Shown: one piece after another, positions 36,001-39,000 of the stretch
Position numbering within the stretch: position 1 is the stretch's first letter
Layout of the letters: each line of letters starts with the position of its first letter
DNA from: Escherichia coli
Lineage (GTDB): Bacteria; Pseudomonadota; Gammaproteobacteria; Enterobacterales; Enterobacteriaceae
NCBI RefSeq assembly: GCF_003334315.1
Contig: NZ_QOWR01000015.1
Length of the DNA stretch: 64,000 nt
Strand: one strand, 5' to 3'
Program-made: the position numbers

Positions 36001-39000
36001 TCTAATAGATTCTCCGCGCCTTTCAGCGCGGAGATTTCTTTCAGAGAGGATTCTCACCGCTGGCAACAATACGCTGCTGGCGGACTCGCCTGAGTTCTCT
36101 TTCAGTAAGCAACTGCAGCGCCTGTGTTGGGCAAGATTCAACGCAGGCTGGCCCCTCTTCCCGCTGTTCACAGAGATCGCATTTCACGATTTGTTGCCGG
36201 GTATCCCCCGGCAATGACTGAATGGTGATCATCCCAAACGGGCACGCACTGACGCAGCTCTGACAGCCAATACAACGGGCAGAATTGGCCTGCACCACCT
36301 GCTCGCCCATCGTCAGCGCCCCCACGGGGCAAGCGCCAACACAAGGGGCGTTTTCACACTGATGGCACATCACCGGCGCACTGATGCTGTCCAGTCGCTG
36401 TACCTTCAGCCGGGGTAAAAAGACATCGGCATTCAACTCCTGTTCTGAAGGGTGAGCGACCACACAGGCCACTTCACAAGTACGGCAGCCAATACAGTCA
36501 GCCGGATTAACGATAATTAACGATTTCATCACGATGCCTTCGTATCAAACAGAGTTAACATATCGCGCGCCGCCTGCCTTCCTGCGGCCATGGCAGTGAC
36601 AACCAGATCCGCGCCATGAACTGCATCCCCACCAGCAAAGACTTTTTTCAGATGCGTCTGGGTAGGTAAATACCCAACGTCGCCGGTTTGAATCAGGCCC
36701 CATTTATCGAGTTTAATTCCGCTGCCCTGCAACCACGGCATGGCATGCGCCTGGAAACCAAAGGCCATAATGAGAACATCTGCGGGCAATTCAAACTCTG
36801 AACCCGCAACCGGACGAGGACGACGGCGACCATCCGGCCCCGGCTCACCCATGGCGGTACGAATCAGGCCCACCGCAGTTAAACGCCCATCTTCGTCACA
36901 AGCGATATATTGCGGCTGAACATTGAATTGAAACTCGACACCTTCCTCGCGCGCATTGACCACCTCTTTGCGCGAGCCCGGCATACTGACTTCATCACGA
37001 CGATACGCGCAGGTCACGCTGGCGGCATTGAGGCGGATGGAAGTCCGCAAACAATCCATTGTCGTATCGCCACCGCCCAATACCACGACTCGCTTACCTT
37101 CCACGTCCGTCAGCGGATACTCTTCAGACTCCGGCAACCCCATGAGCTGGCGGGTATGGGCAGTCAAGAACGGTAGAGCCTGAATGACACCGGGCGCATC
37201 TTCATGCGGCAGATCAGCTCGCATCATCCCGTAAGTCCCCACGCCGATGAAAACTGCATCATATTCAGAAGTTAAATCGCTAAAGGTAATATCGCGGCCA
37301 ATTTCACAGTTAAGATGAAAGTCGATTCCCATTGCGGTGAATATCTCTCGCCGCTGGCTTAATACCGTTTTATCGAGTTTGAAAGGAGGTATGCCAAAAG
37401 TCAGCATACCGCCAATTTCTGGATGGCGATCAAAGACATCAACCTGAACTCCTGCGCGCGCCAGAATATCAGCACACCCTAACCCTGCTGGCCCAGCGCC
37501 AATCACCGCCACTTTTTCGCTACGGGGAACAACTTTGCTGACATCGGGACACCAGCCCATCGCCAGCGCGGTATCGGTGATGTAGCGTTCCAGATTACCG
37601 ATAGTGACTGCGCCAGAGTGATCTTTCAAAGTACATGCGCCTTCACAAAGACGGTCCTGTGGACATACCCTGCCGCAGATTTCTGGTAAGGAACTGGTCT
37701 GGTGGCAAAGTTCTGCCGCTTCAATAATCTTTCCTTCCTGTACCAGACGGATGTAATCCGGAATAGCGTTATGCAGCGGGCAATGCCAGTTGCAGTTAGC
37801 TTTTTCGGCACAATAAACACAGCGGTCACTCTCATAAGTCGCTTGTTGTGGATCCAGCCCGCAATATATTTCGCCAAAGTGGGTTTTCCGTTCACTCGCT
37901 GAAATTTTATCTGCGCCTTTACGCGAGTTAACGGGGAGCAACGCTGCACTGCGAGATGGCTGAGCGTCTGATGACGCTTTTCCTGCTGCCGTTTTGCGCT
38001 GGCGGGCCACCTTTATCTGCTGTAACCCTTTATCGTCCATCAGTCGTAACGCCTGTGTTGGGCAGACTTCAATACAGGCTTGCGTGCCGGAACTGCGCTG
38101 GTTACAAAGGTCGCATTTCTGCGCAATCGTATCGACCATCTCAACGACGCCAAAGGGGCAAGCGATTGCGCATCTTTTACAACCAATACATTTTTGCTCG
38201 TCCAGTTGTACGCTATCGGACTGGAAAGTCAGAGCATTAACCGGACAAGCCGTAACGCAAGGGGCATTGTTGCAGTGATGGCAGGCCACCGGATTCGCAG
38301 CCTGGCCTTTTCCTACAACGTGGATACGCGGTCTAAAGTCACTGTGACTCAGCGGCCAGTTTTCTTGATTGTGTGCCACCGCACAGGCAATTTCACAAGC
38401 ATGACAGCCTATACATTCCGCAGCTTCAGCAGCGATAAACTTATTCATTTGCATCCCTTTCATTTAATGAGTTATGTCTTCTCAAATTTCGCGATGCAAT
38501 AAACGGGCATATATTAGGTAGCATGACCGTTTTAATTATAATTTTGCGACTGAGTTCAAATTATTGCCCCTCAATCTATGCCGCTTTCATTATTTCAACA
38601 TTGCCGATCAAAAGAGTGCTATCCAGATAAAAACGATTAAATGCGAGAGTACGACATGCCAGAATGATTAATGAAATATCAATATGAGAAAATTACAGAT
38701 AATTCCATTGTCAGGTTCTCTTCTCATTTTCGTGGTTTAACCACGATTATGTGATTGCCTCCGCAATTCCTGTCTCTAACTCCCCTTCCTCGCAAAAACT
38801 GGCACTCCACGAGCATGTGTTTAGACAGTTTCATTAACGTAAACGGTTGCTTTTTACTCTGGCGGGCGAAAGGAGAAACACTGATGAGCGCCATAGATTC
38901 CCAACTTCCCTCATCTTCTGGGCAAGACCGCCCAACTGATGAGGTTGACCGCATATTATCACCAGGAAAGCTGATCATACTCGGTCTGCAACACGTCCTT

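What the first reader, a model, noticed from the sequence alone, without database searches (positions are those of the whole stretch)
38800..38814. Sigma-54-like motif upstream of the urate permease gene uacT
TGGCAC-N5-GAGCA has the correct GG/GC spacing about 70 bp upstream of uacT in the ygfT-uacT divergent region. If real, the transporter would belong to the same regulon as the hydroxylases.
Basis: seen in the sequence. Interest (0 to 1): 0.3.

Follow-up and report, generated by a model that had tools for sequence, protein, structure and literature searches.

The report
Likely sigma-54 promoter for urate transporter
The motif upstream of the E. coli urate permease gene uacT looks like chance in E. 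coli alone, but it is conserved across about ten enterobacterial lineages together with two upstream sites shared with proven sigma-54 promoters of the same purine and uric-acid cluster, so it is probably a real, atypical sigma-54 promoter.

Summary
The motif is real: CTGGCACTCCACGAGCA at 38799-38815 (+), with GG and GC correctly spaced. The GC lies 70 bp before the uacT ATG (38884). The stated end, 38814, is one base short.

On its own the motif is chance-level. A matrix built from 135 published sigma-54 ChIP sites scores it 5.7 bits, below all 135. The cause is A/G instead of T/T before the GC. Published ChIP-seq and genomic SELEX report no sigma-54 binding there; ChIP-seq detects sigma-54 only at the divergent ygfT promoter, 300 bp away.

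Comparative evidence reverses that verdict. In 12 loci where uacT has its own upstream region, CTGGCA and GCAT are invariant while the spacer and flanks diverge. A CRP-like TGTGA-N6-nCnCA site always sits 49-50 bp upstream. An inverted repeat (TATCAATATGAGA in E. coli) sits about 115-150 bp upstream. That repeat recurs upstream of the ChIP-verified sigma-54 promoters of xdhA, ygeW and ygfK (5 sites; 0.11 expected). No sigma-70-like promoter is present, and uacT is listed in the published YgeV iModulon.

Verdict: a probable (~0.72) sigma-54 promoter with a conserved non-consensus -12 element, and a new member of a known kind. No transcript evidence is available.

The parts
38799..38815 (+). Candidate sigma-54 promoter of uacT: CTGGCACTCCACGAGCA (-24 GG at 38801-02, -12 GC at 38813-14; G at -15 and A at -14 instead of T/T)
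   Evidence: PWM 5.67 bits. CTGGCA and GCAT are invariant in 12 loci with a variable spacer.
38824..38828 (+). Predicted transcription start (about 38826), giving a 5' UTR of about 58 nt
   Evidence: Inference. It uses the rule of Bonocora 2015, TSS = motif centre + 19. No start site has been mapped.
38750..38765 (.). CRP-like site TGTGATTGCCTCCGCA (TGTGA-N6-nCnCA), centred about -68.5 from the predicted TSS
   Evidence: TGTGA lies 49-50 bp upstream of TGGCA in all 12 loci. TGTGA, the two C positions of the right half and the following TT are invariant. That CRP binds here is inferred from the consensus.
38677..38690 (.). Inverted repeat IR1, TATCAATATGAGAA (core TCA-N3-TGA), a candidate enhancer (UAS) for the activator YgeV; its centre is about -143
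   Evidence: Conserved in 12 loci. An identical 14-mer lies in the ygeV-ygeW intergenic region, with related copies upstream of xdhA and ygfK.
38657..38669 (.). Weaker second repeat IR2, TGCCAGAATGATT, centred 20 bp upstream of IR1
   Evidence: The core nCA-N3-TGAT is conserved in most loci. Paired sites spaced 19-20 bp apart are also seen upstream of xdhA and ygfK.
38884..40332 (+). uacT (ygfU), the urate/proton symporter gene
   Evidence: RefSeq annotation of the identical region.
38497..38513 (-). Sigma-54 binding site of the divergent ygfT promoter (TATGCCCGTTTATTGCA). This is the only sigma-54 ChIP-seq peak in this intergenic region.
   Evidence: Bonocora 2015 site OS32: peak 3029005, FAT 3, PSSM 4.5. 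The -12 TTGCAT is invariant and the -24 lacks GG in all species.
38545..38560 (.). Second CRP-like site, TGCGACTGAGTTCAAA, about -66.5 from the ygfT sigma-54 start
   Evidence: Invariant TG.GA-N6-TC.AA columns in alignment A1. CRP binding is inferred.
36529..38448 (-). ygfT (formate-dependent uric acid utilization protein), divergent from uacT
11525..13303 (-). ygeV, the only sigma-54 enhancer-binding protein gene seen in the annotated part of the window and the presumed activator
   Evidence: RefSeq annotation. The ortholog in L088 has the Sigma54_activat and HTH_8 Pfam domains.
13459..13472 (.). An identical copy of IR1 in the ygeV-ygeW intergenic region. The ygeW sigma-54 promoter is at 13672-13688 and a CRP-like site at 13614-13629.
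   Evidence: Bonocora site OS30. The same layout occurs in L088.
7619..7653 (.). Two IR copies upstream of xdhA (AATCAATGTGATAA and TATCAATATGAGTG on the minus strand). The xdhA sigma-54 promoter is at 7751-7767.
   Evidence: Bonocora site OS29.
23306..23340 (.). Two IR copies upstream of ygfK (TATCATAATGATAA and ACTGATTTTGAGAA). A consensus CRP site TGTGAGTTCATTCACA is at 23410-23425 and the ygfK sigma-54 promoter at 23488-23504.
   Evidence: Bonocora site OS31. The same layout occurs in L090.

Best explanation
The motif is most likely the -24/-12 element of a sigma-54 (RpoN) promoter that drives uacT. Transcription would start near 38826.

Proposed mechanism (every step is inferred except the sequence features and their conservation):
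1. RNA polymerase-sigma-54 binds CTGGCAC (-24) and GAGCAT (-12). The missing T residues before the GC probably make the closed complex weak.
2. The cluster's enhancer-binding protein, YgeV, binds the inverted repeats at about -143 and -163. These repeats are shared with the divergent ygfT promoter.
3. A CRP-like site at about -68.5 may bend the DNA, so that the activator can contact the polymerase and open the promoter by ATP hydrolysis.

Urate uptake would thus be co-induced with ygfT and with the xdhABC, ygeWXY-hyuA and ygfK-ssnA-ygfM-xdhD operons.
For: - Spacing: GG-N10-GC is correct and the -24 half CTGGCAC is perfect.
- Footprint: CTGGCA and GCAT are invariant in all 12 Enterobacteriaceae loci where uacT has its own upstream region. 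These are E. coli x2, E. albertii, Pseudocitrobacter, two Citrobacter, Kluyvera, Serratia oryzae, Raoultella, Pluralibacter and two metagenomic contigs. The 7-nt spacer varies, the flanks diverge (mean column identity 52%), and the distance to the ATG ranges from 70 to 148 bp.
- Ownership: the module is also present where ygfT is not the upstream neighbour (L006/L090, L088), so it belongs to uacT.
- Operon cases: the module is absent where uacT sits inside an operon. This applies after ygfK-ssnA in Erwinia L085 and in L086, and after xanQ-guaD-ghxQ in L089.
- Morganella: upstream of its uacT is a canonical sigma-54 site, TTGGTCTGTATTTTGCT (13.5 bits), plus the inverted repeat.
- Shared element: a PWM of the inverted repeat, trained only on uacT-upstream sites, finds 5 sites in the 300 bp upstream of the ChIP-verified xdhA, ygeW and ygfK sigma-54 promoters. 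Only 0.11 are expected, and 0 of 1000 shuffles reach 5.
- Layout: the same order of inverted repeat, CRP-like site and sigma-54 element occurs at ygeW and ygfK in other species.
- No rival promoter: there is no sigma-70-like promoter anywhere in 38440-38900.
- Expression: uacT and ygfT are listed in the YgeV iModulon, and ygfT expression is reported to fall in a ygeV mutant.
- Precedents: the ChIP-bound ygfT site scores only about 1 bit better on the same PWM (6.69 against 5.67), and one bound site (paaY IS16) also has A at -14.
Against: - The PWM score is below all 135 ChIP-defined sites, and T at -14 is present in 127 of those 135.
- Bonocora 2015 report no peak at the equivalent coordinate (about 3029313) among 135 high-stringency or 149 low-stringency sites. 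They do resolve promoter pairs only 140-160 bp apart.
- Genomic SELEX with the RpoN holoenzyme lists ygeV/ygeW but not ygfT/ygfU.
- The literature describes the -12 element, and a T-tract before its GC, as important for stable binding.
- No mapped start site and no rpoN- or ygeV-dependence data for uacT were found.
- Binding of YgeV to the repeat, and of CRP to the TGTGA site, is inference only.
Confidence: 0.72

Rival explanations
1. The conserved block is the binding site of some other DNA-binding protein, such as a repressor or a urate/purine-responsive regulator. In that case the resemblance to a -24/-12 element is coincidental, and uacT is transcribed from a weak, activator-dependent sigma-70 promoter, for example one that depends on CRP.
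For: The sigma-54 PWM score is poor and the ChIP-seq and gSELEX data are negative. A conserved CRP-like site lies 50 bp upstream. Position -14 is conserved as A rather than the T that sigma-54 prefers, which could reflect the needs of another protein.
Against: Conservation is split into the two blocks a sigma-54 promoter requires, CTGGCA and GCAT at GG-N10-GC, with a freely varying spacer. The blocks show no dyad symmetry. No sigma-70-like -35/-10 pair is present. The sequences at the positions a class I or class II CRP promoter would need are neither -10-like nor conserved (reading). The same three-part layout occurs at proven sigma-54 promoters. The Morganella ortholog carries a canonical sigma-54 site.
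Confidence: 0.13
2. Sigma-54 does recognise the site, but the site is not a productive uacT promoter. It could be a poised or regulatory binding site that affects ygfT, or one that acts as a roadblock, while uacT is transcribed from elsewhere.
For: Bonocora 2015 stress that many sigma-54 binding sites may never give productive transcription. The region is a shared divergent control region that contains a ChIP-bound ygfT site.
Against: The site points towards uacT at a typical distance. It keeps its position relative to uacT in genomes where ygfT is not adjacent (L006, L088). It disappears when uacT is embedded in an operon. No other promoter candidate exists.
Confidence: 0.07
3. It is a pure chance match with no function, and the conservation reflects only shared ancestry.
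For: In E. coli alone the match is at chance level: 174 equal or better PWM hits in the window, or about 1.2 expected per intergenic region of this size.
Against: The flanking sequence in C. freundii, Kluyvera, S. oryzae, Raoultella and Pluralibacter has diverged until it is almost unalignable. All 26 invariant columns of alignment A2 nevertheless fall within the three motif blocks. TGGCA-N8-GCA occurs within 150 bp of the ATG in every locus that has its own upstream region.
Confidence: 0.05

Closest known systems
Sigma-54 promoters of the same cluster: xdhA (OS29), ygeW (OS30), ygfK (OS31) and ygfT (OS32) of Bonocora et al. 2015
   Same: They lie in the same gene cluster and the same published iModulon. 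They share the upstream inverted repeat of the form TATCA-N3-TGAGA and a CRP-like site between that repeat and the promoter. All are imperfect consensus matches with low ChIP occupancy (FAT 3-26).
   Different: Those four have a published sigma-54 ChIP-seq peak and the uacT site has none. Their defects lie elsewhere: ygeW has GT instead of GC at -12, ygfK has TGGTG, and ygfT lacks the GG. The uacT site has a perfect -24 but G/A instead of T/T before the -12 GC.
Divergent sigma-54 promoter pairs hycA/hypA and zraP/zraS in E. coli
   Same: Two back-to-back sigma-54 promoters in one intergenic region with activator sites between them. The pair positions come; the shared activator sites are from established knowledge.
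   Different: In those pairs both promoters are near-consensus and both give strong, separately resolved ChIP peaks. Here both are weak and only one is detected.
prpBCDE promoter (sigma-54 with PrpR and CRP). This is recalled from the literature and was not checked here.
   Same: It is a sigma-54 promoter whose activity also depends on cAMP-CRP, which is the arrangement proposed here.
   Different: The CRP role at uacT is inferred only from a conserved TGTGA-N6-nCnCA site. One paper mentions a native CRP-binding site in the ygeV-ygeW intergenic region.
Intragenic sigma-54 site IS16 in paaY (TTGGCATGGAAAAAGCA)
   Same: It is the only one of the 135 ChIP-bound sites with A at -14, which shows that sigma-54 can occupy such a site in vivo (FAT 5).
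   Different: It is intragenic, it has an A-rich spacer, and its function is unknown.

Membership tests
Sigma-54 (RpoN) -24/-12 promoter | GG and GC dinucleotides separated by 10 bp (TGGCAC-N5-TTGCA type) | tested here: met
   GG is at 38801-02 and GC at 38813-14, and CTGGCAC is a perfect -24 half.
Sigma-54 (RpoN) -24/-12 promoter | Overall similarity to bound sites (PSSM within the range of ChIP-defined sites). This is a heuristic, not strictly a defining feature. | tested here: not met
   The score is 5.67 bits. The 135 sites range from 6.69 to 20.24 with a median of 14.4. The penalty comes from G at -15 and A at -14.
Sigma-54 (RpoN) -24/-12 promoter | Occupancy by sigma-54 in vivo or in vitro | tested here: inconclusive
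   Published ChIP-seq (M9, mid-log) shows no high- or low-stringency peak at about 3029313, and gSELEX shows no peak. A broad ChIP-chip region from Cho 2014 (3028352-3029976) spans both the ygfT and uacT sites. Only one growth condition was tested, and the authors acknowledge missing weak sites.
Sigma-54 (RpoN) -24/-12 promoter | Sense orientation and a plausible distance upstream of a gene | tested here: met
   The predicted TSS is about 58 nt upstream of the uacT ATG. Bonocora's intergenic sense sites mostly lie 18-254 nt from the gene.
Sigma-54 (RpoN) -24/-12 promoter | Selective conservation of the -24 and -12 blocks with a variable spacer in orthologous regions | tested here: met
   This holds in 12 loci. 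CTGGCA and GCAT are invariant and all 26 invariant columns lie in the three motif blocks.
Sigma-54 (RpoN) -24/-12 promoter | An upstream enhancer (UAS) for an enhancer-binding protein | tested here: inconclusive
   A conserved inverted repeat lies at about -143. It is shared with three ChIP-verified sigma-54 promoters of the cluster (5 sites found, 0.11 expected). Which protein binds it is unknown.
Sigma-54 (RpoN) -24/-12 promoter | Transcription that depends on rpoN and on an activator ATPase, starting about 12 nt downstream of the GC | not testable with these tools
   No TSS or mutant expression data for uacT were found in the held literature.
YgeV regulon / YgeV iModulon | Co-expression with xdhABC, ygeWXY-hyuA, ygfK-ssnA-ygfM-xdhD and ygfT | tested here: met
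   The published iModulon gene list includes uacT and ygfT. This comes from the literature and was not recomputed.
YgeV regulon / YgeV iModulon | A shared cis-element upstream of member operons | tested here: met
   TATCAATATGAGAA is identical at ygeV-ygeW and at ygfT-uacT. Related copies lie upstream of xdhA and ygfK.
YgeV regulon / YgeV iModulon | Direct binding of, and activation by, YgeV | not testable with these tools
   The only link is indirect: ygfT expression is reported to fall in a ygeV mutant, as cited in PMC10602906. Genomic linkage of uacT and ygeV is seen in L088.
CRP-dependent sigma-70 promoter (rival) | Recognisable -35/-10 hexamers at class I or class II distance from the CRP site | tested here: not met
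   No sigma-70-like promoter (at least 9 of 12 matches) lies in 38440-38900 on either strand. The positions implied by -41.5, -61.5 or -71.5 carry no conserved -10-like hexamer (reading).

The most novel reading that the evidence does not exclude
uacT may be driven by a deliberately non-consensus sigma-54 promoter. A at -14 is conserved in 11 of 12 loci and T never appears there. Such a promoter would be invisible to PWM scans, ChIP-seq and genomic SELEX because sigma-54 polymerase occupies it only when helped by the upstream module, that is, YgeV on the TCA-N3-TGA repeats plus a CRP-induced bend at a fixed 49-50 bp. The repeat, CRP site and sigma-54 module would then be the cis-regulatory signature of the enterobacterial anaerobic purine and uric-acid regulon. 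It would also be an example of a hidden class of recruitment-dependent sigma-54 promoters.
Probability: 0.3. Interest if true: 0.55.

Novelty: new member of a known kind. Interest (0 to 1): 0.4.

Why it matters
uacT imports urate for the E. coli and gut-bacterial anaerobic uric-acid pathway, which has been linked to host urate homeostasis and gout. How that cluster is switched on is largely unknown.

If the promoter is real, urate uptake is wired directly to sigma-54 and YgeV, and probably to cAMP-CRP, together with the catabolic enzymes. The shared inverted repeat gives a concrete candidate YgeV operator to test.

The case also shows that a conserved sigma-54 promoter can lie below the thresholds of PWM, ChIP-seq and gSELEX surveys. 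This matters for how complete published sigma-54 regulons are.

The gain is incremental, because co-expression of uacT with the cluster has already been published.

Tried and rejected
- Consensus pattern counts and a PWM scan of the window show that the motif alone is not significant. I therefore rejected the idea that sequence match alone supports the claim.
- A sigma-70 promoter scan of the intergenic region found nothing. CRP class I or class II geometry with a sigma-70 -10 was considered and rejected, because there is no conserved -10.
- An Rfam scan of 38400-38950 gave only one sub-threshold hit, L31-Firmicutes leader with E = 0.43, so no RNA element is present.
- I checked by eye whether the inverted repeat could be an FNR site (TTGAT-N4-ATCAA). 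The left half does not fit.
- The following gave no information on ygfU/uacT: the supplements of Cho 2014 and Schaefer 2015, the main texts of the 2025 sigma-54 regulon survey, Zhao 2010 and Schaefer 2015, and the IsrR (YgeV) paper.
- Iwadate & Kato 2019 and Reitzer & Schneider 2001 are not held. The supplements of the PRECISE-1K paper are not held.
- IR-like PWM hits at window 3.3-4.7 kb lie in AT-rich type III secretion remnants, and I treated them as composition artefacts.
- uacT homologues in Hafnia, Edwardsiella and Aeromonas show no comparable motif. Their contexts differ, and I did not pursue them.
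Full report
**Location and observation.** The window is E. coli chromosome. An 801-bp probe around the finding matches 5,331 of 5,426 complete E. 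coli genomes and lies between ygfT and uacT. RefSeq annotation of an identical strain places ygfT at window 36529-38448 (-) and uacT at 38884-40332 (+), leaving a 435-bp divergent intergenic region. The sequence at 38799-38815 reads CTGGCACTCCACGAGCA. GG (38801-02) and GC (38813-14) have the canonical sigma-54 spacing. The pattern ends at 38815, not 38814, and its GC lies 70 bp before the ATG.

**Is it more than chance in E. coli alone? No.**
- TGGCAC-N7-GCA occurs 4 times in the window against 0.92 expected.
- The relaxed consensus with two mismatches occurs 25 times against 27 expected.
- I built a position weight matrix from the 135 high-stringency sigma-54 ChIP-seq sites in Tables 1 and 2 of Bonocora et al. 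2015 (PMC4591121).
- The three best hits in the window are exactly the ChIP-verified xdhA, ygfK and ygeW promoters, which validates the matrix.
- The candidate scores 5.67 bits, below all 135 training sites (minimum 6.69), and 174 window positions score as well.
- The penalty comes from G at -15 and A at -14. In the training set T occupies -14 in 127 of 135 sites and A in only one (paaY IS16).

**Published binding data are negative for this site.**
- By matching motif centres, window coordinate is approximately the U00096.2 coordinate minus 2,990,505.
- Bonocora et al. report sites in the window for xdhA, ygeW, yqeC (intragenic), ygfK and ygfT.
- The ygfT site (OS32; peak 3029005, FAT 3, PSSM 4.5) is TATGCCCGTTTATTGCA on the minus strand, at window 38497-38513. 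That is 300 bp from the candidate.
- Neither the high-stringency list nor the 149 low-stringency sites include anything near 3029313. The method does resolve pairs 140-160 bp apart, such as zraP/zraS and hycA/hypA.
- Genomic SELEX with the RpoN holoenzyme lists ygeV/ygeW but not ygfT/ygfU.
- The older ChIP-chip region of Cho 2014 (3028352-3029976) is broad and centred between the two motifs, so it is uninformative.
- Reviews describe the -12 element, and a T-tract before its GC, as determinants of stable closed-complex binding. A site lacking those T residues is thus expected to bind weakly.

**Comparative evidence changes the picture.**
- I collected orthologous uacT loci from a species-representative genome set and from assemblies.
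- The divergent ygfT/uacT arrangement is kept in a divergent E. coli, Citrobacter sp. R56, C. freundii M-21, Kluyvera, Serratia oryzae, Pseudocitrobacter, Raoultella and one metagenomic contig. The E. albertii contig ends within the intergenic region, so its upstream neighbour could not be seen.
- Alignments A1 (7 sequences) and A2 (12 sequences, mean column identity 52%) show three islands of invariance in otherwise strongly diverged DNA.
- Island 1 is CTGGCA followed, after a variable spacer, by GCAT. The full form is CTGGCAY-N5-(G/A)(A/C)GCAT.
- Island 2 is TGTGA-N6-nCnC(A/G)-TT, which always starts 49-50 bp upstream of TGGCA.
- Island 3 is an inverted repeat (T/A)(A/C)TCA-N3-TGA(G/T)A whose centre lies 114-126 bp (150 bp in Pluralibacter) upstream of TGGCA. 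A weaker copy usually sits 20 bp further upstream.
- All 26 invariant columns of A2 fall inside these three islands.
- The distance from the module to the start codon varies from 70 to 148 bp. The module is therefore positioned relative to itself, as promoter architecture is, and not relative to the coding sequence.
- The base at -14 is A in 11 of 12 loci (C in C. freundii) and never T.

**The module belongs to uacT, not only to ygfT.**
- In Pluralibacter gergoviae (L006, L090) the upstream neighbour is a porin-like gene on the same strand.
- In metagenomic contig L088 the upstream neighbour is a methyltransferase gene, and ygeV and ygeW lie immediately downstream of uacT.
- In both cases the full module precedes uacT.
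- Where uacT is embedded in an operon, the module is absent. This applies 20 bp after ygfK-ssnA in Erwinia sp. L085, 132 bp after ssnA in L086, and after xanQ-guaD-ghxQ in L089. The Erwinia arrangement places uacT in what is a sigma-54 operon in E. coli.
- In Morganella psychrotolerans the uacT homologue is preceded by a canonical sigma-54 site, TTGGTCTGTATTTTGCT (13.5 bits), and by the repeat TATCAATGTGATA.

**Link to the rest of the regulon.**
- The E. coli repeat TATCAATATGAGAA (38677-38690) is identical to a 14-mer in the ygeV-ygeW intergenic region (13459-13472).
- xdhA has two related copies (7619-7632 and 7640-7653), and so does ygfK (23306-23320 and 23327-23340).
- A matrix trained only on the uacT-upstream repeats of six lineages finds 5 sites of at least 12.5 bits in the 300 bp upstream of those three ChIP-verified promoters. 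Only 0.11 are expected, and none of 1000 dinucleotide shuffles reaches 5.
- CRP-like sites also lie between repeat and promoter at ygeW (13614-13629) and ygfK (23410-23425, a perfect TGTGA-N6-TCACA).
- The same order of elements is found at ygeV-ygeW in L088 and at yqeB-ygfK in L090.
- One paper mentions a native CRP-binding site between ygeV and ygeW.
- Transcriptomics agrees. The YgeV iModulon of PRECISE-1K, as listed by the Reg-Seq study, contains xdhABC, ygeWXY, hyuA, ygfK, ssnA, ygfM, xdhD, ygfT and uacT. ygfT expression is also reported to fall in a ygeV mutant.

**Alternatives.**
- No sigma-70-like promoter is detectable on either strand of the intergenic region.
- The positions that a class I or class II CRP promoter would require carry no conserved -10-like hexamer.
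- No Rfam family matches.
- A different DNA-binding protein could in principle explain a conserved block. However, the conservation is split exactly into the two half-elements sigma-54 needs, at the right spacing, with a free spacer and no dyad symmetry.

**Conclusion.**
It does not come from the quality of the match, which is poor.
- The likely mechanism is as follows. Sigma-54 polymerase binds weakly at 38799-38815. YgeV binds the repeats at about -143 and -163, which are shared with the divergent ygfT promoter. A CRP-type bend sits at about -68.5, and ATP-dependent opening gives a start near 38826.
- Only the sequence features, their conservation and the enrichment statistics are shown here. 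Binding of sigma-54, YgeV and CRP, and the start site, are inferred.
- The negative ChIP-seq and SELEX data remain the main counter-evidence. The weak -12 element plausibly explains them, but that explanation has not been proven.
- In the held literature I found no description of a uacT sigma-54 promoter. RefSeq annotates nothing at the site, although the 50-bp stretch is at least 99% identical in 5,135 complete E. coli genomes.
- This is a new member of a known kind, of moderate interest.

Noticed in passing
window 13459-13472, 38677-38690, 7619-7653, 23306-23340: A shared inverted repeat (TATCAATATGAGAA; general form TATCA-N3-TGAKA) lies upstream of all the sigma-54 promoters of the xdh/yge/ygf cluster, often as a pair spaced 19-20 bp apart. 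It is a candidate operator for YgeV, and I found no description of it in the held literature.
   Followed up: yes
window 21916-21929 (inside yqeC): A perfect palindrome, TCTCAATGTGAGAA, of the same repeat family lies about 165 bp upstream of the yqeB start. It is about 225 bp downstream of the intragenic sigma-54 ChIP site IS34 (22157-22173, minus strand). yqeB may therefore be under the same control.
   Followed up: no
window 38497-38513 (-) and alignment A1: The ChIP-bound ygfT sigma-54 site has an invariant -12 TTGCAT, but its -24 lacks GG in every species (ATGCCC, TCGCCC, GTGTCT, TCGCCT). This is the mirror image of the uacT site, which has a perfect -24 and a degenerate -12.
   Followed up: partly
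window 23410-23425, 13614-13629, 38545-38560, 38750-38765: CRP-like sites, including a perfect TGTGAGTTCATTCACA at ygfK, lie between the repeat and the sigma-54 element at ygfK, ygeW, ygfT and uacT. They sit at roughly -97.5, -77.5, -66.5 and -68.5. This suggests cAMP-CRP co-control of the whole cluster.
   Followed up: partly
window 14680-14695 (+, in ygeW), 27417-27432 (+, in ssnA), 47231-47246 (-, in xerD): There are three other exact TGGCAC-N7-GCA matches, all intragenic, with PWM scores of 11.9, 10.9 and 9.6 bits. None is in the published ChIP-seq lists.
   Followed up: no
L007 1034-1056 (Morganella psychrotolerans, uacT 5' UTR): A 23-bp near-perfect palindrome, TCTCAATGTGAATCACAGTGAGA, lies downstream of the canonical sigma-54 site and upstream of the uacT start. 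It combines the TCTCA/TGAGA and TGTGA/TCACA half-sites.
   Followed up: no
L085, L086, L088, L089, L090: The position of uacT is fluid across Enterobacterales. It can directly follow ygfK-ssnA, follow xanQ-guaD-ghxQ, sit next to ygeV-ygeW, or follow a porin-like gene beside arcC. It always stays within purine and uric-acid cluster genes.
   Followed up: partly
window 4426-4455: Two overlapping, fairly strong sigma-54 PWM hits lie on opposite strands: CGGGCATTAATAATGCA (13.9 bits) and ATGGCGAAGATGTTGCA (13.4 bits). They sit inside degraded type III secretion (ETT2) genes.
   Followed up: no
window 38449-38463: The ygfT open reading frame extends 15 nt (5 codons) upstream of the annotated start, to an ATG at 38463 (644 aa against 639 aa).
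   Followed up: no
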